From positions 1 to 57,013 of the IMG/VR virus record IMGVR_UViG_3300021425_000044: a DNA stretch of 57,013 nt; one strand, given 5' to 3'. This document shows positions 2,977 to 22,628 of this stretch, in pieces; position 1 is the first letter of the stretch; each line of letters begins with the position of its first letter. This DNA comes from a virus (taxonomy: Duplodnaviria; Caudoviricetes). The position numbers and the translations under genes were made by a program. The notes under the pieces were generated by a model that saw nothing but the letters and a program-made list of their open reading frames with translations, made no database searches and was not told the DNA's origin.

Positions 2977-3003
2977 AGTTATTCTCCTTATCTAGTTTGT
3001 CGA

Positions 3004-3246
3004 TCACGTTAGTCCCCGGTTCTCAAGCTCAGTCCACAGGGCGACAATCGCATCTACACACATGCGAACCTCCTCTGCTGAGTTGCCGGTCGCATTGTCT
3101 AACGAGCTACTACCTCGCCATGCGTCGAATGACTGGCCGAGTGCCATGATGCTGTTGTCAAAGTATCGAACAGCCTCTTCGTTGCTCAGCTTCTGTGCTC
3201 TCTTGTACGCTGCGGGGTCGATAGAGCGTGTAATTCTCATCCCCAC
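3004..3246 (-). CDS. Hypothetical protein
   Basis: ORF track; overlaps upstream gene stop. Confidence 0.65.
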   Translation of the reverse strand: MGMRITRSIDPAAYKRAQKLSNEEAVRYFDNSIMALGQSFDAWRGSSSLDNATGNSAEEVRMCVDAIVALWTELENRGLT

Positions 3247-3572
3247 TGTCGAATCTCCTCAGGCGAGTCGGACAGCTCTCTGCCGTCTAGCTGGTCCAGG
3301 CGGCTCTTCCCCTTTCCTGTAAGGATGCCGATTTGCAGTATGTACTTCTTCCTTCGGAACTGAATACCTTGCCCTCTCCAGAAGGGGGCAGAGTTCTGGC
3401 GCATGAATGCTCGACAGAGCCGGGGGTCATCGTCCCAACCAGTATCCCTGACAAGCCAGTAGACGCGGAGCCACGTGATGGCCTGGAGCTTGTTCATGGT
3501 GTTGTAGAACAGTAAGTAAATGTTGAATGAAATGGACGCCACCAATAGGGCGATCAAGATAAAAGTAGTCAT
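3237..3572 (-). CDS. Hypothetical membrane-anchored protein
   Basis: N-terminal hydrophobic helix; AAGG RBS. Confidence 0.7.
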   Translation of the reverse strand: MTTFILIALLVASISFNIYLLFYNTMNKLQAITWLRVYWLVRDTGWDDDPRLCRAFMRQNSAPFWRGQGIQFRRKKYILQIGILTGKGKSRLDQLDGRELSDSPEEIRQWG

Positions 3573-3588
3573 TTTGTGAACCTTTCAA

Positions 3589-4041
3589 TTATACACCGTT
3601 AAAGAATTGAGCCTCTTCTTGTGCCGTAGCACGTCGATAAGGAAAATGGTTAAGGGTCGAGTTAATGTAGCGACCTTTGGAGTCGGTACTATGGAAACCG
3701 TCCCACACAGAGACAGGCACGTTACTGTAGATCCAGGGAGTAGCGTACTTGATGAAGCGGACACGGATGTCCTTAGTATCATAGTCGTACTGGTATGCAA
3801 GGACTCTGGAGCTATCGGGAAAGTACCACTTTGTGGATGTTAGAGCGTGACCGCCGTCTTGACCATCAGAAGACTGCTGGTGTCCAGCGATAGTGTCACC
3901 ACTACCAGAGAGTGTATTCCCGCTAGTGTTGGCAAACAGCGTCCTACTAAGGACCTCATCCTCGGTCGATGTCGATGGGTCTGCAATAGACTTCCACCTT
4001 TCCCGACCCCAATCACCTAGACCGTTCTTACGTGCTGACAC
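3589..4041 (-). CDS. KTSC-domain protein
   Basis: SSRVLAYQYD...VRF...YSNVP..VWDGF..TDSKGRYIN matches the KTSC pattern. Confidence 0.8.
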   Translation of the reverse strand: MSARKNGLGDWGRERWKSIADPSTSTEDEVLSRTLFANTSGNTLSGSGDTIAGHQQSSDGQDGGHALTSTKWYFPDSSRVLAYQYDYDTKDIRVRFIKYATPWIYSNVPVSVWDGFHSTDSKGRYINSTLNHFPYRRATAQEEAQFFNGV

Positions 4042-4089
4042 CCCTACAGTATACCATTAGTCTGTAAGAATAACAATAGCTAACGTTAG

Positions 4090-4521
4090 CTATACCTTCT
4101 TCTTACGCTTTTTCATGGGGCCGGTCAATGGCAGTTCTTCCAGGGGCTGAACTGCCATCGTGTCGGAAGGCATGGGTGAAATGTTCTCGTACGTCGAGAC
4201 CTTGAGGGTTCCCTTGCTAACGACCTTAGTTTCGTTCGGATCACCCTTGTACATATAGTTTGAGCGACTAATCGTTGCCACAACATCGAACGGGTAAGTA
4301 CCGTCCTTGAGCCACTCTGTGTTAAACTCGTTCATCGAGAGGAGAATACCCCCCTCCCACGTCAGCTCATGGGGGATGATGTATTTCTTACCCTCGTAGA
4401 GCATCGTAGCTGCGGCAGACTCAGGCTTACGCACACGGTGCGTCCACGAGTCCTTGACGATGATTAACCGTTCCCAGACTTCACCTCGATTGATATGGTA
4501 ACGAGTAGTCTTAGCAGCCAT
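4090..4521 (-). CDS. Hypothetical protein (beta-rich, possibly structural)
   Basis: ORF track; leaderless promoter TGG-TAAGCT-N6-ATG. Confidence 0.7.
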   Translation of the reverse strand: MAAKTTRYHINRGEVWERLIIVKDSWTHRVRKPESAAATMLYEGKKYIIPHELTWEGGILLSMNEFNTEWLKDGTYPFDVVATISRSNYMYKGDPNETKVVSKGTLKVSTYENISPMPSDTMAVQPLEELPLTGPMKKRKKKV

Positions 4522-4580
4522 CCTGATAGCTTACCACACAGTCACATCGTGGGGGGCTGAGAAAACTTGCACGTCTAAGG

Positions 4581-4609
4581 TTGCAAAGCTGAGACGGGTC
4601 CGCTATAGT
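4581..4609 (+). promoter_or_regulatory. Sigma70-type promoter reading into a non-coding region
   Basis: TTGCAA-17nt-TATAGT. Confidence 0.7.
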
Positions 4610-4614
4610 ACCTC

Positions 4615-4985
4615 TCACCGAACAACTGAGCCGGGGTTAAGAACCCCAGGTGTGGCTAACCTGAGAAAGCCTGACAAGGTGTAAAGCCCCCCGCTTCGTT
4701 AGCGTGAGGAACCCCCGTTAGATGGTGTATCTTAACCAACCCCTTAACACGGGTGAACCTAGACCAACGGTGACGACACAGAGTGTCGAGCCTGAACATT
4801 CAGGCTGTCTATAAAACTACCGGAACTGAAGTGAAAGCATCTCAGTGGTAAGCATAACTATGTCTACAGTTATGGTGAGCATGTGTTCTCTACTCGCTTC
4901 CGCTCGCAGAGATAGAGAAAGATCACTGTTAATCTCTCTCACTGACTGAGCGGGAGCGAAGGAAGCAACATGGTCAACACTTTAG
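4615..4985 (+). ncRNA. Candidate ~370-nt structured non-coding RNA
   Basis: Own promoter, no ORF in track, series of stems (4633/4642, 4774/4783, 4789/4799, 4853/4868, 4894/4948 with G-U wobble). Confidence 0.55.
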
Positions 4986-5014
4986 GTTTATGCACCCTTA
5001 TGTCCATTTTCAGG

Positions 5015-5043
5015 TTGACTTTGTATACCCTTCCAGGTATACT
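5015..5043 (+). promoter_or_regulatory. Sigma70-type promoter
   Basis: TTGACT-17nt-TATACT upstream of AAGGAG RBS. Confidence 0.75.
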
Positions 5044-5069
5044 GTGGGTACAAGACTACGAAGGAGATA

Positions 5070-5261
5070 ATGACATGGAAAAGCTGTTCAGCTAAGATGG
5101 GGACGATGATGGCAGACGACAAAGTTAACAGTCTGATGGGACTGTCAGTCCCTGACCTGTCTGACTCAGAACGCCTTGACTTAGCCAAGGTTAAACATGT
5201 TTTACTTAATATGTCCCCGCAAGAACTATCTGAGTTTATGAAAGGAACACCAGATGAGTAA
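5070..5261 (+). CDS. Hypothetical protein
   Basis: AAGGAG RBS, promoter. Confidence 0.7.
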   Translation: MTWKSCSAKMGTMMADDKVNSLMGLSVPDLSDSERLDLAKVKHVLLNMSPQELSEFMKGTPDE

Positions 5262-5586
5262 CGTAGAAGAGGTAGTGAAGGTAGACGAAGGGCTTTACGT
5301 ACTGCGGGAAGGTGAGGATGCCCTCTCCCTCTCAGGTAAACTGTACGGCAGCCGGATGCATCACCAACGTCTCAGGGACGCTAACCCTACATCTGAATGG
5401 TTAGCGGGGGACACTATTAAGGTCCCAGGTAAGGCGGGTCGCGTAACCGTCTACACAGACGAGACCACTGATCTCCTTATACGCCGCATGTTCCCAGGGC
5501 ACCCGGTGTATATTCACAAGCCTCTACTTCTCAAGTGGAACCCTGATCCAATGCCAGGCGATGCCGTGTTCGTCCCTGAGCGATGA
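5254..5586 (+). CDS. Stand-alone LysM-like protein resembling the endolysin C-terminus
   Basis: YVLREGE..LYG...VPGKAG...IRR...WN..PGD aligns by eye to endolysin YVKKGD..VYG...TPGVKG...IRR...WN...PGD. Confidence 0.7.
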   Translation: MSNVEEVVKVDEGLYVLREGEDALSLSGKLYGSRMHHQRLRDANPTSEWLAGDTIKVPGKAGRVTVYTDETTDLLIRRMFPGHPVYIHKPLLLKWNPDPMPGDAVFVPER

Positions 5587-6221
5587 AGTTCAAGGAGTCT
5601 GCCCTCGCTCACCAGTACCTAGACGGTCTCGTAGGTGTTGAGATTGGGGGCGCAGCCCACAACCCATTTGGACTTGATACTATCAACGTAGACGTTACTA
5701 AGCCAGGTAGCCCCCACAGGATTATGTACGACAAGTCTCAGATTGACCTGTGCGGAGAAGCTCTGCCCGTAGACGTGGTTGCCCCCGGTAACCTGTTACC
5801 TTTCGATAACAAGTCGTACGACTTTGTACTCGCATCGCATGTTATTGAGCACCTCTTCGACCCCCTCGGTGCTTTAGAAGAATGGTCTAGAGTAGCCAGG
5901 AAGTACCTGTTTATCATTTGTCCCCATCCTGATTCCCTCCCTAGCGACGTGGGTAAACCTCTAACTACTCCAGAAGACACCCTCCTTCGGCACGAGATGC
6001 ATGTTCGTAAAAGCCACCCAGTACATGGGGATGGTTGGGAACCCGAGGATCTAGGTATCGATGAACACTGGTCGAGGTGGACACCTCCCCTGTTCAAACA
6101 GATGCTCAACCATGCGGGGCTTTGGGACGTTGTTGATATCCAGGACCCAGACGATAAGGTTGGTAACGGGTTTACGGTAGTAGTAGACCTAGACGCTAAG
6201 ACTGTTCCGCATCACCACTAG
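5583..6221 (+). CDS. Class I SAM-dependent methyltransferase-like protein
   Basis: GVEIGG motif I; LPFDNKSYDFVLASHVIEH; LEEWSRV. Confidence 0.85.
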   Translation: MKFKESALAHQYLDGLVGVEIGGAAHNPFGLDTINVDVTKPGSPHRIMYDKSQIDLCGEALPVDVVAPGNLLPFDNKSYDFVLASHVIEHLFDPLGALEEWSRVARKYLFIICPHPDSLPSDVGKPLTTPEDTLLRHEMHVRKSHPVHGDGWEPEDLGIDEHWSRWTPPLFKQMLNHAGLWDVVDIQDPDDKVGNGFTVVVDLDAKTVPHHH

Positions 6222-6396
6222 CTTGAGCTTCGTCAAACGCTGCTAGAGCGTTGCCGATGTGACGTTCCTTCATACTATTGAACTGTCCGTCTGATAGGTT
6301 ACGATCCATCTTTCGACTCGGGCTGGCTGCTTCTCGCAGCTTGCGGCGGTACGCCTGCTCCTTTTCGATGCGGTCGTCTTCGCTAATGTAGTTCAT
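6196..6396 (-). CDS. Hypothetical protein carrying NLSDGQF tag
   Basis: ATGA coupling to upstream gene; shared peptide motif. Confidence 0.65.
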   Translation of the reverse strand: MNYISEDDRIEKEQAYRRKLREAASPSRKMDRNLSDGQFNSMKERHIGNALAAFDEAQASGDAEQS

Positions 6397-7316
6397 CCTT
6401 GTGCCCGCCCCCGATCGTCGTAGCGCTGTTCTATAATGGTGCGGAACTGAGGTCCCATGCCTATCCTGCGCCCGACCAATGCACCCCCGGTGGAGGTGGA
6501 GAGGGGTAGAGGTTCCTGATAAGGTCTATTCTTAACTGAGACAGCCGACCGGAAAGGTACCTTACCCTCGTTACCTTTCTCTATACGCTTGTAAGCGAAA
6601 TCCTGAGCCATAGGAGTGCTCCCAGGGTCATCTAGTACGTCCCTCTCCCAGGAGGTTACTGCGGTGCGCGGGGCGATGATGCTCTTCTTGAATCCAGGAG
6701 TCTCTTCGGTGTCTTCAAGGTTATCCCCTTCGATGTAATTATGGTACTGGATGGGCCTTCCCTGGTGTAGCGCTCGGGCACCCGCCTGCGCCCTAGCCGT
6801 CCCATTTTGCCACTCAAGGGAGTCATAATTATCCCTGGGGGCCATATCGCCCGCAGACTCTACGATGGACTCCGGTATTTCGTCCTCGTACTCTCCACTC
6901 TCTAGGCGGGCACCGTACTCGGCAGCGTTAGCCTCCCGGTCAGTGAACACACCGGGAGCCTTCTTCTTGGTCAGGCGGCGAGCGTAGACGCTAGCTGTGT
7001 CTCCAGACGGCTTGCTCACATCGTCAAACAAGTCGTAGTTGTCGTACGCTTCGCCCAGGTACTGAGCACGGCTCTTGGCACGCTGGGAGGTGCCGTCACC
7101 ACCGAGGGGGAGCGCCCCTGCACGGTCAGCAGCTTGGCCCCTGGTCCCGTAGTGAGCCATGGGGGCGTTCCCGAAGTCAGAACGCCCAGAGCCGTGGTAG
7201 ATCGGGTTCTCCGTCGCTAGCCACTCGTCCATACTCTTCTGTCCAGGGCGTTTAGCGGCAGTCTGGTACTCAGACGAGTCGAACAACGATAGCTGCTGAG
7301 AAAGGTTATCCTTCAT
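6393..7316 (-). CDS. ADP-ribosyltransferase-like protein (ART-PolyVal-like), paralog of 10929-11828
   Basis: IYHGS, HYGT..QA..R, YHNYIEG..., TSWERDVL; N-terminus MKDNLSQQLSLF. Confidence 0.6.
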   Translation of the reverse strand: MKDNLSQQLSLFDSSEYQTAAKRPGQKSMDEWLATENPIYHGSGRSDFGNAPMAHYGTRGQAADRAGALPLGGDGTSQRAKSRAQYLGEAYDNYDLFDDVSKPSGDTASVYARRLTKKKAPGVFTDREANAAEYGARLESGEYEDEIPESIVESAGDMAPRDNYDSLEWQNGTARAQAGARALHQGRPIQYHNYIEGDNLEDTEETPGFKKSIIAPRTAVTSWERDVLDDPGSTPMAQDFAYKRIEKGNEGKVPFRSAVSVKNRPYQEPLPLSTSTGGALVGRRIGMGPQFRTIIEQRYDDRGRAQG

Positions 7317-7899: not shown

Positions 7900-10086
7900 A
7901 TGACACTTACAGACTCCTCTCTCGCTACCCCGCCCGCCCTCACAGACGAAGTTATCACCTCGTTTATGGATGACAAGATCCTTGCAGAGGATCTTCCTGC
8001 CCCCCAGTGGGGGCCGGTTGGTCGGGAGGTTTTTGAGAGAAGTTACTCTAGGGACATCATCGATCCCTCGGGCCTGGTGGTGGATAACTGGACCTGGCAG
8101 GTCCCCGAGTCTCGTACCACCGAGTTGTGGGGTGACACCGTGCGTCGTGTTGTCAGTGGAAACATTGGGTACGCAGACGACATGGGGATTAATACCAGCC
8201 CGTGTGAGGTGTTGGACCTGTTCCGCATGATCTACGATTTCAAGATCGTCCCCGCAGGTCGTCATCTGTGGATGACTGGCGTACCGGGTGCGGCCCTCAA
8301 GAACTGTCACCGCGCAGGCTGGAGCAAGGATATTACAGACCACTTCCGATTCCTGGCTATACAGCTTTTCCAGGGTGGCGGTGTCGGTGCAAACTACTCC
8401 AAGTTCTATCGTGAGCGTGGTGGTAACGTCGTCGGTAATGTGGACGTTCGTGTCACCATTTCGGAGAGCCACGATGACTACGCATCAGTCAAGTCGTCTG
8501 CTGACGGTATGTGGATTGGGGACGAAGACTTCAACGTGCTTCCGTTCGTAGTTGAGGACACCCGAGAGGGTTGGGTTGACGCATGGGTTGAGCTTATTCG
8601 CCTGTACCACACCCCAGGAGATCACCATGTTGTGTTTGACCTGACAGAAGTTCGTCCACATGGTGCCCCTCTCCGTGCGTTCGGTGGTAGGGCATCCGGC
8701 CCATCGCCTCTTGCAGGCTCACTCGTTTCTATTTCGGCTATCCTTGAAAAGGTTGAAACTGACACCCTTATGTCGGCCATCGACGCCATGGTCATCGACC
8801 ACTACATCGCTTCTGCAATCGTCGCAGGCGGTACCCGCCGCAGCGCCCGTATGTCACAGCTTAACTGGAATGACCCAGAAGTATTCGACTTCATCAAGCA
8901 TAAGCGCAATGATCCCTCGGTCTCGTGGAGCACTAATATCTCTGTTGTTCTGGACGATGACTTCCACGCAGCCCTTGAGGGTGGAGACGCTCACGCTTCC
9001 GAGGTTCTCCACGCTATCGCAGAAGGTATGGCCGCTGACGGCGAGCCGGGTATCTACAACCTATCTCTCGCTCAGGTAGGAGAGAAGCGGGACGTGGGTG
9101 CCACCAACCCTTGTGGAGAGGCCATCTTAGAAGAGCATTACGACCCTGAGACAGGTGAAGGCTCTGCCAGCGGTGAGTCGTGCAACCTGGGATCGGTGGA
9201 CATGGATGCCATCGGAAACAACCATACGGAGACTATTGAGGCATTCCGCCTAATGTCACGATTCCTGTACCGTGCAACGCTCGCCCCCATCTATGACGCT
9301 GACCAGGCTGAGATTGAGTTCCGCAACCGCCGTCTCGGTGTGGGCATCATGGGCTTCCAGGGTTGGTGCGCCAGCCATGGTATCAAGCTGACCGAGTTCC
9401 CTGACAGCGAAGATCTAATGAACAAGATGGTAGAGTATCGTCTTGCGTGTCGTGACGCCGCCGATACCCTGGCTGAGGAGCTTGGTCTCCCTGCGCCGAT
9501 CAAGGTTACAGCTATTGCCCCGACTGGCTCTATTGCACAGCTACGGGGTACTACGGCAGGGCTTCACCCAGTGTACGCCCGGTACTTCATCCGTCGTATC
9601 CAGTACGCTGACACCGCCCCCACGCTTCAGGAGATGATCGACGCCGGATACCCTATTGAGGATTCCATTTACGCTGCCCATACCAAGGTCGTATCTATCC
9701 CTGTTAAAGACATCATCCTCGACCGCCATGCGGAGGAACTCATCGAGCAGTCCGACGAGGTTGGTGTCGGTAGCTTCCTGGCAGTTCAGGCATCTCTACA
9801 GGACACCTTCTGTGGGGGGCTTGATGGTCAAGCTATTTCTGCTACGGCCCAGATCCCGCCAGACACTAACCCTGACCTCCTTACAGAGACACTATACGAG
9901 TACGTTCACCGTATTAAGGGTGCCACTGTGTTCCCTGCTCTCAGCCGCCCCCAGCAGCCCATTACTTCAGTGTCTAAGGGTGACTGGGCTATTGCTCTTC
10001 TGGAATTGAGTAACTCATCTACTACCACTCTTCACGGAGACTCCAACGACGGTGATTGCGTTGGGGGAGCTTGTCCCATCCGGTAA
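7900..10086 (+). CDS. nrdJ: Class II (adenosylcobalamin-dependent) ribonucleotide reductase
   Basis: PAGRHLW, LKNC, GGGVG, VEDTREGW, AGGTRRSA, TNPCGE, SCNL, APTGS, C-terminal CVGGACPIR; no beta subunit adjacent; start placed downstream of the promoter. Confidence 0.93.
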   Translation: MTLTDSSLATPPALTDEVITSFMDDKILAEDLPAPQWGPVGREVFERSYSRDIIDPSGLVVDNWTWQVPESRTTELWGDTVRRVVSGNIGYADDMGINTSPCEVLDLFRMIYDFKIVPAGRHLWMTGVPGAALKNCHRAGWSKDITDHFRFLAIQLFQGGGVGANYSKFYRERGGNVVGNVDVRVTISESHDDYASVKSSADGMWIGDEDFNVLPFVVEDTREGWVDAWVELIRLYHTPGDHHVVFDLTEVRPHGAPLRAFGGRASGPSPLAGSLVSISAILEKVETDTLMSAIDAMVIDHYIASAIVAGGTRRSARMSQLNWNDPEVFDFIKHKRNDPSVSWSTNISVVLDDDFHAALEGGDAHASEVLHAIAEGMAADGEPGIYNLSLAQVGEKRDVGATNPCGEAILEEHYDPETGEGSASGESCNLGSVDMDAIGNNHTETIEAFRLMSRFLYRATLAPIYDADQAEIEFRNRRLGVGIMGFQGWCASHGIKLTEFPDSEDLMNKMVEYRLACRDAADTLAEELGLPAPIKVTAIAPTGSIAQLRGTTAGLHPVYARYFIRRIQYADTAPTLQEMIDAGYPIEDSIYAAHTKVVSIPVKDIILDRHAEELIEQSDEVGVGSFLAVQASLQDTFCGGLDGQAISATAQIPPDTNPDLLTETLYEYVHRIKGATVFPALSRPQQPITSVSKGDWAIALLELSNSSTTTLHGDSNDGDCVGGACPIR

Positions 10087-10117
10087 AGTCCCACTGGTGT
10101 AATCGTTACCATATTTG

Positions 10118-10257
10118 GACCATCATTTTCCCGTTCTAAGAGCTGAATAGGAAAATGATGGTCTAGGGGATATCAGGGATATAAACTTGATGGTTTAATT
10201 GTCGCGGTCGAGGTGTACCCCTGATATCCCTTTAGAGGGGATATGATATCCCTTCTA
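10118..10257. terminator. Three consecutive hairpins between convergent genes
   Basis: GACCATCATTTTCC/GGAAAATGATGGTC (10118/10150); GGGATATCAGGG/CCCTGATATCCC (10167/10219); 10233-10257 imperfect palindrome. Confidence 0.6.
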
Positions 10258-10397
10258 ATTATCGCTAAAAAGTGTACCCTGCTCACCTTGTGACTTTTGT
10301 CTTTTGCCTAGGACCGACCTTAGGGTGCGCCTAAGCGATCGTCGCTTAACTTGACTGGGGTGTCTATACGACGGAATTGGAGACCCTTTTTCTTCAT
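10255..10397 (-). pseudogene. Possible frameshifted remnant resembling the C-terminus of 13323-14000
   Basis: RRTLRSVLGKRQKSQGEQGTLF vs RNTVRSILGRK...EQLSL; ATG at 10397 is in a different frame. Confidence 0.35.
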
Positions 10398-10423
10398 GTA
10401 GAAGAGTCTCACACACTACTGTA

Positions 10424-10585
10424 TTATCGGCCCCTGGCCCAGCCCCCGCCGACAAAGTTAGCTACAACAGACTCATCCTTATAGGAACGTCTGGAGATAA
10501 CACCGCAGCACTGTGGGGGGCTTTCACGGTCCTCACCATTAAGAGTCTTAGAACACTCTTTACACCTGAATGCGTAGTTAGCCAT
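10424..10585 (-). CDS. FmdB-like zinc-ribbon protein (53 aa)
   Basis: Manual: MANYAFRCKECSK...QCCG...FVGGGW; not in ORF track. Confidence 0.75.
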   Translation of the reverse strand: MANYAFRCKECSKTLNGEDRESPPQCCGVISRRSYKDESVVANFVGGGWARGR

Positions 10586-10749
10586 CAGGACTTATCCTCT
10601 TTGTCAGGATCAGCTTCTCCTCCGAACATGCTGCTAATCCCTTCCTTCTTATTGGTAAGGTTTTCACCACACACCTGACAATGCTTAGCAGGGGGACCTG
10701 TCATACGTGTGATGGTGCGTACGCTTGGGTGCTTACATACTCCAGTCAC
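10585..10749 (-). CDS. Small Cys/His zinc-finger-like protein (54 aa)
   Basis: Manual: MTGVCKHPS...HCQVCG; GTGA and TGATG couplings at both ends. Confidence 0.65.
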   Translation of the reverse strand: MTGVCKHPSVRTITRMTGPPAKHCQVCGENLTNKKEGISSMFGGEADPDKEDKS

Positions 10750-10907
10750 GACGGCACCTTCACTGACTTCTTAACACCGTGCGTTGGCACTTTATTAAAG
10801 GTGAACTTGGTCCAGATGAAACCGCACTCAGGGCACTCGTCCCCGTTGATCGCTTTCTTACCTGATCCAGGGCACTCTGTAGGGAAGTTGTAGTTGTCGT
10901 AAATCAT
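10746..10907 (-). CDS. Small zinc-finger-like protein (53 aa)
   Basis: Manual: MIYDNYNFPTECPGSGK...CPECG...VPTH. Confidence 0.7.
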   Translation of the reverse strand: MIYDNYNFPTECPGSGKKAINGDECPECGFIWTKFTFNKVPTHGVKKSVKVPS

Positions 10908-10928
10908 GGGGCGTAGCCTACCATATAA

Positions 10929-11828
10929 TTAGTCTTTTGGCAACTCAATCTTCTGAGTAACTGCCCCCTGGTTCTCAGCACTCGACATTGCCGAGGAGAA
11001 CTGGTAGGAGCTAATGTTGGGGGCCATGTCTTTGAAAGACCCTGTATGAGGCTCTCTGAAAGGTACAGACCCTTCCTTACCGGAGTCGATACGCTGTCGG
11101 GCGTATCTCTTTGCATCCTCTGATGCCCGAGGGGCCTTTAACACATCCCGCTCCCAGGAGGTAGTTGCCTCGGGGGGCGCTACGTACGAAGGCATTGAGG
11201 AGCCTCCATCCTCGTACTCGTTCTTATATGATATGGAATGGCCCTGTTGCATATCTTTCATACCCTGTCTAGCGGTACGGGCACCCGGCTCATTCCTATC
11301 AAATAGTGCTTCGTTCCCCCCATCACCGTGTACACCATAATCAGGACGTAGCACTCCAGCACTGCCCTCGGTAGACGGAGGAATACTTGCCCCCTCTTCC
11401 CACCGGAAGCCAACCTCAGCAGCATTAGCTTGCTGGTCAGACATTGGAAGGTTCTTAGATATCCCCATAGAGGGGTCTTCACGAGGAGTCTGGTCGATCA
11501 ACCGCCGAGCGTAAATACGCCCTTCATGCTCCGTTTTGACCGGCGTCATCGGATCATCCGACTTCACCCCGTAGTACCTGTTGTTGTCAGATGCACTATG
11601 AGCAATGCTGGAAGACATGTCCTCGATACGCGCAAGGGCCTGGTCTTTGGTACCAAAATGATGTACAGGTGCCTTAGTCCAGTCTGAGCGCATGGAGCCG
11701 TGGTAGACAGGGTTAGTCTTGTCCACCCAGTCATCCATTGACAGCTCTCCTAATTCAGGGGGTGGGCTGTTGTAGTCGTCCTTGTCGAAGAGGGTGAGCT
11801 GCTCAAACTGGTCTTTATTCAGAGTCAT
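10929..11828 (-). CDS. ADP-ribosyltransferase-like protein (ART-PolyVal-like), paralog of 6393-7316
   Basis: VYHGS, HFGTKDQALAR, YKNEYEDGGS..SY, TSWERDVL; start placed at ATG 11828 by TGG-TATGAT-N6 promoter. Confidence 0.6.
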   Translation of the reverse strand: MTLNKDQFEQLTLFDKDDYNSPPPELGELSMDDWVDKTNPVYHGSMRSDWTKAPVHHFGTKDQALARIEDMSSSIAHSASDNNRYYGVKSDDPMTPVKTEHEGRIYARRLIDQTPREDPSMGISKNLPMSDQQANAAEVGFRWEEGASIPPSTEGSAGVLRPDYGVHGDGGNEALFDRNEPGARTARQGMKDMQQGHSISYKNEYEDGGSSMPSYVAPPEATTSWERDVLKAPRASEDAKRYARQRIDSGKEGSVPFREPHTGSFKDMAPNISSYQFSSAMSSAENQGAVTQKIELPKD

Positions 11829-14072: not shown

Positions 14073-14485
14073 TTATCCACAGGTTATCCCCAATTTATGG
14101 TGGGGGGGGTGTGGATAACCTGACCCCCCTTATCCCCAGCCTCTATCCCCATGTTATACACAGGGGGGGGCGATACGTGGAGTGGTGTGACCATTGTCAC
14201 GTGACAGTTGTCACACCGACAAGGTTATCCACAATCACCGACGACTTATCCACACCCTGTGGATAAAGGTGTGGATAACACACCCCATGTGACCATGGTC
14301 ACATCCTCTGAGTCCGCCTGTGTTGCGTTCTAAGGCGTCGACCCCCCTCTGCGCCCCCGTCATACCAAAATGAGATTCTAAGAGCTTAGGGGGCAACGTT
14401 TTTCTGTGGATAACTCCAACGGCCCATATGCCATAAGGCTCAGATCAGATCCTGAAATAATGGACGCCTCACAGGGTTATCCACA
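14073..14485. promoter_or_regulatory. Cluster of DnaA boxes
   Basis: TTATCCACA at 14073, 14225, 14246, 14477; TGTGGATAA at 14110, 14258, 14270, 14405; TTATACACA at 14154; TTATCCCCA variants at 14084, 14130. Confidence 0.85.
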
Positions 14486-19677: not shown

Positions 19678-19716
19678 GGCAGTTGGTCGGGGAGCGTTTG
19701 TGGTGGGCGCTCCCCG

Positions 19717-19763
19717 GCACAACGTCATGGCATTACCTGCCAGGTAATGCCATGACGTTGTGC
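19717..19763. repeat. Perfect 47-bp palindrome (23-bp arms, 1-nt centre)
   Basis: GCACAACGTCATGGCATTACCTG-C-CAGGTAATGCCATGACGTTGTGC. Confidence 0.95.
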
Positions 19764-20567: not shown

Positions 20568-22043
20568 ATGAACTTGAACGATATGCTCTCCGATATCGGT
20601 GTTTCACCGACGACAACCCCCGCCCCGTCGACGCCCGCCGTGCGTCCTGGTGACACGACCATCCCGCTGTACGACTTCCAGCGTGAGGCCGTCGAACACG
20701 CCCTGAGGTCGAACACTGACCAGTACGGATACATCGGCCTGGAGATGGGCCTGGGCAAGACCCCCTGCGGCATCAGCATCGCTGTAGGTTGCAAGGACGC
20801 AGGCATCACGCCCACGCTCATCATCGTCCCCCCGAGCCTCCGTATCAACTGGGTACGTGAGATCAAGAAGTTCGCCCCCGGCCTCAAGGGTTACGTCTTG
20901 AAGGGGACCAAGCCTCACGACGTTCCGGCTGACGCCGACGTGCTCGTGATGGGCGACAGCAGTGTCATGGCTTGGCACGAGTCACTCATCGGTCAGGTGG
21001 GGGCGCTCGTGGTCGATGAGGCTCACCGGTTCAAGAACCGTGAGTCCAAGCGCTCTAAGGCTCTCGATACCCTATCCAAAAGCATTACAGGGCCACGAGT
21101 GCTCATGTCCGGTACGCCGATGCCCAACGGTCGCCACGCCGAGCTTGCCAAGCAGATCGACGTGCTTGGCAACGGCGCATGGTCTGATATCGGTGGTATC
21201 GGAAACTTCTGGCAGAACTATGCTCCCCAGACAGACTCGTGGGGCGGTCGTGGCAACAACGACAGCGAGGGTCTGCACAAGCGTATGACCAACTCGTGGT
21301 TCTTCCGCAGGCTTCGTGACGACGTTATCGAGATGCCCAACAAGGGCCGCACGTCTCTCGCCCTGGAAGGTAAAGGTAAGGCCGTCTCAAAGTACAAGCG
21401 TATGCACGAAGACATCATCTCGTTCCTCGCTGACAACAACGACGGCAAGGTGACCGCTGGGCAGAAGCGTGCAGAGGCTCTCATTCGGCTCACGTCGCTC
21501 CGTAAGGCGGCGGGAGAGGCCAAGGTGGAGTCAGCAGTCACTCACATCAAAGAGCTGTTAGACAGCGAACCAGGCGGAGTGTTCGTTGTTGCCGAGCACG
21601 GTGACGTGATGGACGGGCTTGTCGACGGTCTGTCGAAGTACAATGCCACGACGGTTCGGGGCGGTATGAGCGACACGGCCAAGGCCGAGGCGGTCGATAG
21701 CTTCAACTCCGGTACAAGCCGGGTGCTCGTTGGTCAGATCACAGCGGCTGGCGTCGGCCTCACCCTTCACGGCGACGGTCGTAACCACCGGGTCGTCGTC
21801 GTGCAGCTTCCTTGGACTCCTGCGGACCTCAAGCAGGCCGAGGACCGTCTGCACCGTATCGGCCAGACCAAGGACGTGCATGTCGAGATTGCCTTGTGCG
21901 CCATCGACAACATCTGGACCATCGATGAGCGGCTGTGGGGAATCCTGGAGGCTAAGAACTTCAACACCACCTCAGCTATCGACGGCGACGGTGAGTACCT
22001 GTTGTCAAACGCTCAGGACTCCCTACTCGACACCTACCGATGA
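20568..22043 (+). CDS. SNF2-family (HARP-like) helicase
   Basis: LYDFQ, MGLGKT, DEAH, SGTP, GVGLTL, QAEDRLHRIGQ; start placed downstream of the promoter. Confidence 0.92.
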   Translation: MNLNDMLSDIGVSPTTTPAPSTPAVRPGDTTIPLYDFQREAVEHALRSNTDQYGYIGLEMGLGKTPCGISIAVGCKDAGITPTLIIVPPSLRINWVREIKKFAPGLKGYVLKGTKPHDVPADADVLVMGDSSVMAWHESLIGQVGALVVDEAHRFKNRESKRSKALDTLSKSITGPRVLMSGTPMPNGRHAELAKQIDVLGNGAWSDIGGIGNFWQNYAPQTDSWGGRGNNDSEGLHKRMTNSWFFRRLRDDVIEMPNKGRTSLALEGKGKAVSKYKRMHEDIISFLADNNDGKVTAGQKRAEALIRLTSLRKAAGEAKVESAVTHIKELLDSEPGGVFVVAEHGDVMDGLVDGLSKYNATTVRGGMSDTAKAEAVDSFNSGTSRVLVGQITAAGVGLTLHGDGRNHRVVVVQLPWTPADLKQAEDRLHRIGQTKDVHVEIALCAIDNIWTIDERLWGILEAKNFNTTSAIDGDGEYLLSNAQDSLLDTYR

Positions 22044-22130
22044 TTACTCGTAAGGGTTGCGGCACCCGTAGCCCTTTGGTAAGGTGTAACCACACAACAA
22101 CAACAACAACAACCGACCTAGGAGGTCACG

Positions 22131-22256
22131 ATGTCAGAAGAAATACGAACCAACTCCAGGGGTGAAGTTATCATCCCATTCAATCGCCCTGGCGCTCCAG
22201 AGATCGATCTTGCAGAGCTTATGGAGGCTTTGCGAGACCATAAGAACCGTGGCTAA
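22131..22256 (+). CDS. Small hypothetical protein (41 aa)
   Basis: AGGAGG RBS after (CAA)n leader; TTGCGG-17-TAAGGT promoter; MSEEIRTNSRGEVIIPF... Confidence 0.7.
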   Translation: MSEEIRTNSRGEVIIPFNRPGAPEIDLAELMEALRDHKNRG

Positions 22257-22422
22257 GTACACGGTTCGACAGGCTTGGAGCACGTCCGACCGTCAGAGGT
22301 TCTCTGATGGTGACGTGCTCCGAGCCTCCGCTCGCCCAGGGCGTAGAGACCTCGGTCCCTCTAAAGATGAGTGGGACTATGACGACAACGAAACCGACAA
22401 CGGTAAGGACATTATAAAATGA
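22249..22422 (+). CDS. Hypothetical protein
   Basis: GTG start overlapping upstream stop; MAKYTVRQAWS... Confidence 0.6.
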   Translation: MAKYTVRQAWSTSDRQRFSDGDVLRASARPGRRDLGPSKDEWDYDDNETDNGKDIIK

Positions 22423-22628
22423 TTGGCGACATGGAGCTACAAGAACTACAGGAACTAATCGACCAAGATGCTGAGGATCTCGGAATCTATGATATCGACT
22501 TCGATGATATCGATGATATCGAAGATTACGAGTGGGATATGTCATCGGAAGAACCAGACGTGGAGATGGATCTGGTCGACGGTCTCACCGAGCTTATCGA
22601 CGGCATGTTCGTAGAAAGCCGGTACTGA
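22419..22628 (+). CDS. Highly acidic small protein
   Basis: D/E-rich 69 aa; ATGA coupling. Confidence 0.7.
   Translation: MIGDMELQELQELIDQDAEDLGIYDIDFDDIDDIEDYEWDMSSEEPDVEMDLVDGLTELIDGMFVESRY

What the first reader, a model, noticed from the sequence alone, without database searches (positions are those of the whole stretch)
4581..4985. Promoter-driven ~370-nt structured non-coding region (candidate novel phage ncRNA)
Seen: TTGCAA-17-TATAGT promoter, then an ORF-free tract densely packed with stems: GGGGTT/AACCCC (4633/4642), CAGGT/ACCTG, TAGAC/GTCTA enclosing CGACAC/GTGTCG and AGCCTGAA/TTCAGGCT, TACC..ACTGA/TCAGT.GGTA, CATAACT/AGTTATG, and a long terminal hairpin TCGCTTCCGCTC/GAGCGGGAGCGA whose mismatch is a G-U on the + strand. 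The next gene has its own promoter at 5015, so this need not be a 5' UTR. Inference: stand-alone RNA (sponge, primer RNA or unknown class).
Basis: partly seen in the sequence, partly recalled or inferred. Interest (0 to 1): 0.7.

Follow-up and report, generated by a model that had tools for sequence, protein, structure and literature searches.

The report
Structured non-coding leader in marine phage
A gene-free, hairpin-rich stretch of about 400 bases behind a conserved promoter in an uncultured marine phage is probably a folded RNA leader of the neighbouring genes, a kind of element often seen in phages, and its job is untested.

Summary
No ORF is conserved there. The tract folds better than shuffles (z -4.1; -5.3 and -5.8 in two relatives). 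Rfam has no match.

Only four sequences carry the element: the window plus three metagenome contigs, one of them partial. In these, 39 letters after the promoter, including a 15-letter hairpin, are invariant. The middle 155 letters cannot be aligned. 12 of 79 modelled pairs change on both sides and stay paired.

The stand-alone reading is only partly supported:
- No U-tract terminator follows the long hairpin.
- Folding energy and G-U counts do not tell the strands apart.
- No RNA data exist.
- The four sequences amount to about two lineages.

My best reading (0.4) is a rightward, cis-acting structured leader whose 93-nt hairpin is an RNase III-type processing or 3'-end structure.

In the two relatives that cover that part, the first gene after the second promoter encodes a 54-57-aa arginine-rich protein. 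The invariant hairpin has the shape of lambda boxB. That makes an N/nut-like module a weak lead. In the window a 145-nt deletion has removed that gene.

This scan has reported many similar phage leader RNAs on other DNA. Interest is modest.

The parts
4090..4521 (-). Leftward neighbour gene (143 aa, no family). It is the anchor used to find relatives.
   Evidence: ORF. No Pfam match, and a weak match to phrog_6552.
4581..4609 (+). Promoter-like site P1 (TTGCAA, 17 nt, TATAGT). The start is inferred near 4617.
   Evidence: 9 of 12. In alignment A2 the -35 is identical in 4 of 4 sequences and the -10 in 3 of 4 (L067 has TAGAGT), while the spacer varies. The start site is inferred, not shown.
4612..4650 (+). 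Invariant block after P1, holding hairpin H1 (GGGGT-TAAGA-ACCCC at 4633-4647, flanked by CC/GG).
   Evidence: 1 of 40 columns varies in 4611-4650 among 4 sequences, against 67 of 405 in the neighbouring coding sequence, whose longest invariant run is 26. H1 is predicted in every fold. It occurs once in the window.
4655..4660 (+). 5' side of a tentative long-range closing helix H2, which pairs with 4847-4853.
   Evidence: 6 pairs, of which 3 are invariant, 1 changes on both sides and 2 are broken in the window. It is strong in L066 and L067.
4657..4811 (+). Fast-diverged central domain with hairpins private to the window, including the TAGAC/GTCTA three-way junction at 4760-4811.
   Evidence: blastn homology to all three relatives stops at 4656 and resumes at 4812 or 4872. 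111 of 159 alignment columns vary. Relatives carry different hairpins there.
4812..4825 (+). Conserved unpaired segment TAAAACTACCGGAA.
   Evidence: Identical in 4 of 4 sequences, with variable sequence on both sides.
4825..4846 (+). Hairpin H5, the best covariation in the element.
   Evidence: Of 8 pairs, 4 change on both sides and stay paired, including a G-U to U-G flip, and 100% of cells are paired (helix 5).
4853..4874 (+). Hairpin H6 (CATAACT/AGTTATG). It is private to the window; relatives have GGGC-GAA-GCCC at the same place.
   Evidence: (I2).
4880..4972 (+). Long imperfect hairpin H7. Its core is 4894-4906 paired with 4947-4959. It extends to 4873-4979 with 3 mismatches in the window, and by about 15 further clean pairs in L066 and L067.
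   Evidence: C4900-G4953 becomes A-U in L066, and A-U in the relatives becomes G4877-C4975 in the window. No U-tract follows.
5015..5043 (+). Promoter-like site P2 (TTGACT, 17 nt, TATACT).
   Evidence: 10 of 12. It is kept in L066 (TATAAT) and L067, inside a conserved block.
5070..5261 (+). First rightward ORF of the window (63 aa). It is the product of a 145-nt deletion that removed the small arginine-rich protein gene found in relatives and joined its start to the next ORF (ATG at 5097).
   Evidence: Alignment A2, columns 598-742. ORFs. The protein family is shown.

Best explanation
The tract is the non-coding control region between two diverging gene blocks of an uncultured marine tailed phage.

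My best reading is as follows:
1. Host sigma-70-type RNA polymerase starts at P1, near 4617, and makes a rightward RNA. (Inferred.)
2. The first 35 letters of that RNA, including hairpin H1, are under strong constraint. (Shown.)
3. The RNA then folds into a variable multi-hairpin domain closed by a long-range helix, followed by hairpin H5 and the 93-nt hairpin H7. (The folds are predicted and partly supported by covariation.)
4. H7 has about 36 pairs here and about 50 in relatives, and no U-tract. I take it to be a double-stranded processing or 3'-end-protecting structure of the RNase III-substrate type, not an intrinsic terminator. (Inferred.)
5. The RNA therefore acts in cis as a structured leader. 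It sets how much P1 transcription reaches the rightward genes (a small ORF, a 110-aa protein and a methyltransferase) and how stable that message is. Those genes also have their own promoter, P2. (Inferred.)
6. A stable 5' fragment of about 355 nt may be released as a by-product. (Inferred.)
For: Non-coding:
- No frame longer than 47 aa lies between 4522 and 5069.
- The 81-aa frame of L066 is split into 43 and 47 aa in L067.
- tblastx against 121 loci gave nothing outside L065-L067 except one hit at E 0.91.

Structure:
- z is -4.1 for the window, -5.8 for L067 and -5.3 for L066.
- On the 3-sequence alignment, 94% of 235 cells are paired.
- 12 of 79 pairs change on both sides, against 4.7 +/- 1.6 in 500 shuffles (0 of 500 reach 12) and 0-3 when partners are slid.
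- 4 of the 8 pairs of H5 are compensatory.

Constraint:
- 1 of 40 columns varies in 4611-4650, against 67 of 405 in the adjacent gene.
- The P1 hexamers are kept while the spacer varies.

Direction:
- P1 and P2 and all downstream genes point rightward.
- The leftward gene keeps a TGGTAAGCT -10-like element 8 nt from its ATG, and L067 has no Shine-Dalgarno there. The leftward gene therefore probably does not need the tract as its leader. This is an inference.

Context:
- Relatives at 48-59% protein identity keep the same divergent gene pair, with a hairpin-rich leader of 120-200 nt in front of the 110-aa gene (z -1.4 to -2.7).
- Long hairpins without U-tracts also sit between other plus-strand genes of this phage.
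Against: - No transcript data exist, so neither P1 nor any RNA end is shown.
- Only 3 full homologues and 1 partial one exist, and L065-L067 are alike. The covariation is in effect one comparison between two lineages, on a structure derived from the same sequences.
- The strand is not resolved. The minus-strand z is -3.7, -6.8 and -4.0. G-U cells number 25 on the plus consensus and 24 on the minus.
- P1 scores only 9 of 12, and such sites occur at chance frequency in the first 20 kb. L067 weakens the -10.
- P2 makes the leader dispensable for expression of the genes.
- The central 155 nt are not conserved at all.
- The window's version folds less well than the relatives': 3 of the 14 pairs of the H7 extension and 2 of the 6 pairs of H2 are broken. 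That could mean decay.
- RNase III cleavage is pure inference.
Confidence: 0.4

Rival explanations
1. Stand-alone trans-acting RNA. P1 makes an RNA of about 355 nt whose 3' end is set by H7, either by termination at a hairpin without a U-tract or by trimming back to it. The RNA acts on another molecule, for example as a decoy or sponge. Its fast-evolving centre would be the target-facing part.
For: - The downstream genes have their own conserved promoter P2, so the RNA is not needed as their leader.
- H7 resembles the long U-less hairpins that follow the ends of other plus-strand genes (10118-10163 after the reductase gene; 19699-19763).
- The ends are conserved and the centre is hypervariable.
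- There is no Rfam match.
Against: - No U-tract or other termination signal follows H7.
- The 19717-19763 hairpin lies inside an operon with no promoter after it, so such hairpins need not stop transcription.
- No complementary target was found for the conserved unpaired segments. There were 8 matches with up to 3 mismatches, only one of them perfect (the segment itself) and none near a gene start that I examined, and 1 match (itself).
- There are no transcript data.
Confidence: 0.2
2. N/nut-like antitermination module. H1 is a boxB-like hairpin on the nascent P1 RNA. The small arginine-rich protein, encoded just after P2 in relatives, binds it and makes RNA polymerase read through H7 and the other inter-genic hairpins. 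In the window itself the protein gene is deleted.
For: - H1 (GGGGT-TAAGA-ACCCC) has the same layout as lambda nutL boxB (GCCCT-GAAGA-AGGGC). Both have a 5-bp stem, a U-A closing pair and a five-letter loop ending AAGA, and both are promoter-proximal.
- The first ORF in L066 and L067 is a 57-aa protein (called as 52-55 aa in the 7 database clusters) with an invariant RRAxNRRK motif near its N-terminus.
- The only local BLASTP alignment to lambda N is arginine motif to arginine motif (5 of 11 identities).
- In lambda, nutL lies about 200 bp before N with a highly structured stretch between them, and RNase III modulates control of N (PMC5725501, passages read, and the title of its reference 29).
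- The extended RNA and the small gene are both confined to the window's lineage.
Against: - The BLASTP E-value of 0.82 is not significant.
- There is no Pfam or PHROG family. The best match is an HIV Rev model at E 0.073, below its cut-off.
- The first loop base is U, not G, and H1 can also close to a 6-bp stem with a 3-letter loop.
- No boxA-like match lies in 4522-5069.
- There is no second copy of H1 in the 57 kb.
- P2 lies between the supposed nut site and the gene.
- The window keeps the RNA but has lost the protein gene.
Confidence: 0.12
3. The functional RNA is on the minus strand: a long structured 5' leader of the leftward block (the 143-aa gene through to the endolysin), transcribed from a promoter to the right of 4980.
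For: - The minus strand folds as well as the plus strand (z -3.7, -6.8 and -4.0).
- G-U counts are equal.
- H1 has no bulge on the minus strand.
- The leftward block must have a promoter somewhere in this region.
Against: - The only minus-strand promoter-like site to the right (5006-4979) loses its -10 in the relatives.
- A conserved -10-like element sits 8 nt from the leftward ATG.
- The one G-U to U-G flip, in H5, is a pair only on the plus strand.
Confidence: 0.08
4. There is no RNA function. The tract is a DNA-level element (an origin, a recombination or packaging site, or protein-binding palindromes), or decaying mosaic spacer whose hairpins are incidental.
For: - The centre is not conserved, and homology breaks sharply at 4656, as at a mosaic junction.
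- The element is confined to four sequences.
- Hairpins read the same on either strand.
Against: - The tract has no AT-rich stretch (GC 0.45-0.53).
- It has no iterons, only weak two-copy repeats.
- It has no DnaA boxes. All 8 perfect boxes lie at 14073-14485.
- Compensatory changes keep the stems paired, which incidental hairpins would not show.
- The invariant 39 letters point to selection.
Confidence: 0.1

Closest known systems
Lambda PL - nutL - structured N leader (RNase III site) - N gene
   Same: - A promoter is followed by a small 15-letter hairpin of the same layout. Lambda boxB was read from the record and H1.
- A long structured leader follows. [quoted passage not shown]
- Then comes a small protein with an N-terminal arginine-rich motif, seen in the relatives L066 and L067.
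   Different: - There is no boxA.
- The first loop base differs.
- The protein has 54-57 aa and no significant similarity to N (E 0.82).
- A separate promoter, P2, precedes the gene.
- Only one hairpin copy is present in 57 kb.
- The gene is deleted in the window.
T7 early region (tandem host promoters, untranslated leader, RNase III site before the first gene)
   Same: Host-type promoter or promoters, a few hundred untranslated letters, and a long imperfect hairpin just before the first gene. The T7 layout is recalled from memory and was not checked in any call.
   Different: T7-type RNase III sites are shorter, with a defined internal loop. Cleavage is not tested here. This phage is unrelated: it has a myovirus-like baseplate and its PolA is at most 34% identical to any cultured phage.
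Candidate structured RNAs catalogued from IMG/VR phage contigs (Fremin, Bhatt, Kyrpides 2023, PMC10690425) and the structured phage leader RNAs already noted by this scan
   Same: An uncatalogued, covariation-supported structure in a phage intergenic region upstream of genes. The paper's abstract and outline report 10,006 such candidates, including cis-regulatory ones upstream of genes. This scan lists many promoter-plus-structured-leader findings on other DNA.
   Different: I could not check whether this locus is one of the 10,006, because supplements are closed. This element is small (about 355 nt), known from four sequences only, and has a non-conserved centre.
HK022 put RNAs (cis-acting antitermination RNA)
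   Same: A structured RNA made just after an early promoter that could act on the polymerase transcribing it. This is recalled from memory; another finding of this scan drew the same comparison (e1-6203620).
   Different: put is about 70 nt with two defined stem-loops and occurs twice per phage. Here there is one copy, about 355 nt long, with no sequence comparison possible.
Large ornate phage RNAs (GOLLD, ROOL, HEARO)
   Same: Non-coding, phage-borne and multi-helix.
   Different: No Rfam match was found even at E 10. This element is much smaller, has no tRNA neighbours and has a narrow distribution.

Membership tests
Any Rfam 15 family | Score at or above the family's gathering threshold | tested here: not met
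   0 matches in the whole window. With E up to 10, 4400-5300 gave 4 matches of 12.6-20.3 bits against thresholds of 35-70. In L065-L067 there were 2 matches with E above 1.
Sigma-70-type promoter (P1) | -35 and -10 hexamers 16-18 nt apart, kept in relatives | tested here: met
   TTGCAA, 17 nt, TATAGT, scoring 9 of 12. The -35 is kept in 4 of 4 and the -10 in 3 of 4. Activity was not tested, and the pattern alone is at chance frequency.
Intrinsic (Rho-independent) terminator at H7 | G+C-rich hairpin directly followed by a U-tract | tested here: not met
   The scan found no plus-strand terminator-like site in 4000-5600. The letters after 4972 are GTCAACACTTTAGG. In the relatives a run of four T starts about 15 nt after the stem.
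RNase III substrate | About 20 bp or more of mostly regular double-stranded RNA | tested here: met
   The predicted H7 has a 13-bp perfect core and about 36 pairs in all in the window, and about 50 in L066 and L067. This is a prediction only.
RNase III substrate | Cleavage by the enzyme | not testable with these tools
   Needs an in-vitro cleavage assay or RNA-end mapping.
Lambda-type N/nut antitermination | boxB: a 15-nt hairpin with a GNRA-like five-letter loop | tested here: inconclusive
   The stem length, the U-A closing pair and 4 of 5 loop letters match lambda nutL boxB. The first loop base is U instead of G, and a 6-bp/3-letter-loop form is also possible.
Lambda-type N/nut antitermination | boxA upstream of boxB | tested here: not met
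   A 12-letter boxA core, recalled from memory, had 50 matches with up to 3 mismatches in the window. None lies between 4226 and 5838.
Lambda-type N/nut antitermination | N-family protein encoded downstream | tested here: not met
   Relatives encode an arginine-rich 54-57-aa protein, but it has no Pfam or PHROG family and its BLASTP E-value against lambda N is 0.82. The gene is deleted in the window.
Lambda-type N/nut antitermination | nut sites in more than one operon | tested here: not met
   H1 occurs once in the 57 kb, even with 3 mismatches allowed. The record is only about 61% of a genome.
Replication origin / primer RNA | Initiator boxes or iterons with an AT-rich unwinding stretch | tested here: not met
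   There are no DnaA boxes here; all 8 perfect boxes lie at 14073-14485. Only weak two-copy repeats are present. GC is 0.45-0.53.
tRNA / tmRNA-like element | Cloverleaf detected by ARAGORN | tested here: not met
   0 genes in the window.

The most novel reading that the evidence does not exclude
The tract encodes a discrete phage RNA of about 355 nt. It is made from its own promoter and ends at the long hairpin. It has a conserved scaffold (the invariant 5' hairpin, the closing helix, H5 and H7) that carries a rapidly diversifying central domain of about 155 nt. Under this reading the RNA is a trans-acting decoy or guide-like RNA caught in an arms race with a host or rival-phage factor. It may work with the small arginine-rich protein encoded next to it in relatives.
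Probability: 0.1. Interest if true: 0.7.

Novelty: new member of a known kind. Interest (0 to 1): 0.35.

Why it matters
Structured leader RNAs behind early promoters keep turning up in uncultured phages, and almost none has a known function.

This one is small enough to test directly. It offers a natural comparison. Close relatives share 86-92% identical flanks, yet they differ in the RNA's centre and in whether the adjacent arginine-rich protein gene is present.

If the hairpin and that protein prove to be a boxB/N-like pair, RNA-hairpin-directed antitermination would extend to a marine phage lineage unrelated to the lambdoid phages. If not, it is one more entry in a growing catalogue.

Tried and rejected
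RNA evidence
- The look-up of sequencing runs (kind rna) on 3000-7000 listed no RNA holder. The six runs listed came only by 'same study', each with a word share of 0.00.
- Laying the contigs of X1-X4 on 3500-6500 at 85% likeness placed nothing.
- This says nothing about expression.

More homologues
- Single-protein scans of viral contigs with the 110-aa and 143-aa proteins found none.
- The profile scans gave 63 viral and 58 metagenome loci. Only L065-L067 share DNA with the tract (3 of 121 loci).
- Three exact-pattern scans of viral contigs found 0.
- Genome contigs gave 0, both by protein profile and by a 30-letter pattern.
- blastn against 50,697 phage records gave no match. tblastn with the 143-aa protein gave no match.
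The contigs behind P0001 (33 members) and P0007-P0013 could therefore not be fetched. They are the obvious source of more sequences.

Covariance model
- Model R1 (H5-H7, 174 positions) was run over the window and 99 loci, 715,102 bases in all. L101-L122 were not searched.
- It found only the window and L065-L067, plus three reverse-strand hits on the same hairpin.
- So there are no paralogues in the window and no structural homologues in the distant relatives.

An idea dropped
- By eye, P1 and the TAAAACTACCGGAA segment resemble a motif kept in the distant relatives: TTGAC, 8 nt, TAWAMT, GGAA.
- A pattern for that motif hit once in each of 22 of 122 loci, L065-L067 included.
- However, I widened the pattern's gaps after seeing L066. 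Local alignments of these segments score at or below shuffles (for example 12 against 13.4 +/- 2.1; best case 22 of 500 shuffles as high).
- I therefore do not claim homology or a tandem duplication.

Strand
- Energies and G-U counts do not separate the strands.
- The count (19 G-U against 1 A-C) is biased, because the structure came from the plus strand.

Other checks that found nothing
- No tRNA or tmRNA.
- No protein-level similarity.
- No target complementary to the conserved loops.
- No boxA in the tract.
- No DnaA box in the tract.
- Cumulative GC skew shows no turning point here.
- No cultured relative, hence no host. The best PolA identity is 34%.

Papers
- PMC10690425: abstract and outline only. 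Its supplements, which would say whether this locus is among its candidates, are closed.
- PMC5725501: three passages.
- Wilson et al. 1997 and 2002: titles only, from that paper's reference list.
- The T7, HK022 put and 'U-less terminator' comparisons are recalled from memory.
Full report
WHERE IT LIES

The window is one IMG/VR virus record of 57,013 bases, linear and about 61% complete. Its genes include an endolysin, a baseplate wedge protein, a family-A DNA polymerase, helicases, a class II ribonucleotide reductase and a queuine-tRNA-ribosyltransferase-like protein. It has no cultured relative. The best polymerase identity is 34%, there is no DNA match among 50,697 phage records, and the 143-aa neighbour protein has no tblastn match. 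The sequencing runs listed for it are marine.

The finding sits in a 548-nt gap (4522-5069) between two diverging gene blocks. To the left is a block that starts with a 143-aa protein (4090-4521) and runs down to the endolysin. To the right is a short block holding a small ORF, a 110-aa protein and a methyltransferase.

THE OBSERVATION

- The tract has no frame over 47 aa.
- It folds better than all 100 dinucleotide shuffles (z -4.1).
- The opposite strand does as well (z -3.7).
- Among 454 windows of the same length across the record, it ranks about 7th on the plus strand. It is one of several structured gene-free spots in this phage.
- Rfam 15 gives nothing at gathering thresholds, and only chance-level hits at E up to 10, in the window and in its relatives.
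- ARAGORN finds no tRNA.

RELATIVES

The 143-aa protein has few homologues. A profile of them pulled 63 viral and 58 metagenome loci. Only three metagenome contigs share DNA with the tract: L066 and L067 in full, and L065 up to the 5' arm of the long hairpin. Further pattern scans and a covariance model found no others.

These three contigs are 86-92% identical to the window through the leftward genes. The homology runs unbroken to exactly 4656 and vanishes for 4657-4811. It returns at about 76% for 4812-5082 and at 85% beyond.

WHAT IS CONSERVED

- The P1 hexamers are kept while the spacer changes. L067 has one change in the -10.
- The next 40 columns (4611-4650), holding hairpin H1, have a single variable column. 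The adjacent coding sequence has 67 variable columns of 405, and its longest invariant run is 26.
- The centre is 111 of 159 columns variable.
- TAAAACTACCGGAA (4812-4825) is identical in all four sequences.
- P2 lies in a conserved block.

No ORF is shared across the tract. An 81-aa frame in L066 is split in L067. tblastx finds nothing elsewhere.

STRUCTURE

RNAalifold on the three full sequences gives these helices:

- H1.
- A long-range helix H2 (4655-4660 with 4847-4853) that closes the variable domain.
- H5 (4825-4846).
- A variable small hairpin H6.
- The long hairpin H7 (core 4880-4972). In L066 and L067 it is extended by about 15 clean pairs.

I counted a 79-pair subset of these helices:

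- 94% of cells pair.
- 12 pairs change on both sides, against 4.7 +/- 1.6 in shuffles (0 of 500 reach 12) and 0-3 when partners are slid.
- H5 alone has 4 compensatory pairs of 8.
- H7 has two: C4900-G4953 becomes A-U in L066, and G4877-C4975 in the window stands against A-U in the relatives.

Three caveats apply. The structure was derived from these same sequences. Helices 3 and 4 lie in poorly aligned sequence. L065-L067 are close to one another, so the evidence amounts to roughly one comparison between two lineages.

The relatives fold better than the window (z -5.8 and -5.3). In the window, 3 of the 14 pairs of the H7 extension and 2 of the 6 pairs of H2 are broken.

STRAND

- The plus-strand consensus holds 25 G-U cells in local helices and the minus-strand consensus holds 24.
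- Minus-strand z-scores are -3.7, -6.8 and -4.0.

I favour the plus strand for three other reasons:

- P1 is conserved and the genes run rightward.
- The only minus-strand promoter-like site to the right loses its -10 in the relatives.
- A conserved -10-like TGGTAAGCT sits 8 nt from the leftward ATG, and L067 has no Shine-Dalgarno there.

This is inference, at about two chances in three.

STAND-ALONE RNA OR LEADER

H7 has no U-tract. This phage has other long U-less hairpins:

- after the reductase gene (10118-10163 and 10167-10230);
- between two plus-strand genes (19699-19763, including a perfect 23-bp stem). The next gene there has no promoter of its own.

Such hairpins therefore need not end transcription. 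They look more like processing or stabilising structures.

More distant relatives (48-59% identity in the 143-aa protein) keep the same divergent gene pair. In them a 120-200-nt hairpin-rich leader runs up to the ribosome-binding site of the 110-aa gene. A structured rightward leader is thus a trait of the wider group, although no sequence or model similarity links those leaders to this tract.

I therefore read the tract as a cis-acting structured leader whose long hairpin is an RNase III-type substrate.

A LEAD WORTH TESTING

In L066 and L067 the first ORF after P2 encodes a 57-aa protein.

- It has an N-terminal arginine-rich motif (invariant RRAxNRRK). Seven database clusters at 79-98% identity, called as 52-55 aa, confirm it as a real gene.
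- It has no Pfam or PHROG family.
- In the window a 145-nt deletion has removed it and fused its start to the next ORF.

H1 (GGGGT-TAAGA-ACCCC) has the layout of lambda nutL boxB (GCCCT-GAAGA-AGGGC). In lambda, nutL lies about 200 bp before N with a highly structured stretch between them (PMC5725501, passages).

Against this lead:

- BLASTP to lambda N aligns only the arginine motifs, at E 0.82.
- There is no boxA.
- There is no second H1 copy.
- The first loop base differs.

I give the idea 0.12.

ORIGIN OR PRIMER RNA

This reading is not supported. All 8 perfect DnaA boxes of the window lie at 14073-14485. The tract has no iterons, no AT-rich stretch and no skew turn.

COMPARISON AND NOVELTY

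The tract belongs to no catalogued RNA family. As a kind, it is familiar: an uncatalogued structured RNA between a host-type promoter and phage genes.

- A screen of IMG/VR and other viral sequences reported 10,006 candidate structured RNAs, some of them cis-regulatory and upstream of genes (PMC10690425; abstract and outline). I could not check whether this locus is among them, because supplements are closed.
- This scan has already reported many promoter-plus-structured-leader findings on other DNA.

I file it as a new member of a known kind, known from four sequences, with function untested.

VERDICT

- Observation: confirmed.
- Stand-alone reading: partly supported.
- Best explanation: a structured leader with an RNase III-type hairpin (0.4).
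- Interest: 0.35.

Noticed in passing
window 5070-5261; L066:3288-3461 (-); L067:1-174 (-): Relatives encode a conserved 54-57-aa protein with an N-terminal arginine-rich motif right after P2. In the window a 145-nt deletion, between short GATGG..AAAA repeats, removes it and fuses its start codon in frame to the next ORF (ATG at 5097).
   Followed up: partly
window 10086-10929: A stretch of about 840 nt with no ORF of 100 aa or more lies after the ribonucleotide reductase gene. It holds the most structured 374-nt window of the record on the + strand (start 10001, z -4.2). It has two long hairpins (10118-10163 and 10167-10230) with no U-tract.
   Followed up: no
window 19699-19763: Two hairpins sit back to back between two plus-strand genes. 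The second is a perfect 23-bp stem with a 1-nt loop. CTGATA-type repeats follow, and no promoter-like site precedes the next gene.
   Followed up: no
window 14073-14485: Eight perfect TTATCCACA DnaA boxes lie within 413 nt, against 0.34 expected in the whole window. It is the likelier origin-like site of this record.
   Followed up: partly
L002:551-573, L008:3841-3864, L011:3895-3917, L014:3851-3873 and 15 further syntenic loci (all on the - strand of the locus): Distant relatives keep one copy of TTGAC, 8-9 nt, TAWAMT, GGAA in front of the 110-aa gene. The -35-like and -10-like hexamers are only 7-9 nt apart, which no sigma-70 promoter allows. Two or three G+C-rich hairpins follow, one with a CUUG loop.
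   Followed up: partly
window 4519-4540: The leftward 143-aa gene has a conserved TGGTAAGCT (extended -10-like) element 8 nt from its ATG. In L067 nothing resembling a Shine-Dalgarno is present, so the mRNA may be leaderless.
   Followed up: no
window 22001-22500: Another strongly structured stretch on the + strand (z -3.4 to -3.6 in the genome-wide scan). It includes the inverted repeat 22271-22327.
   Followed up: no
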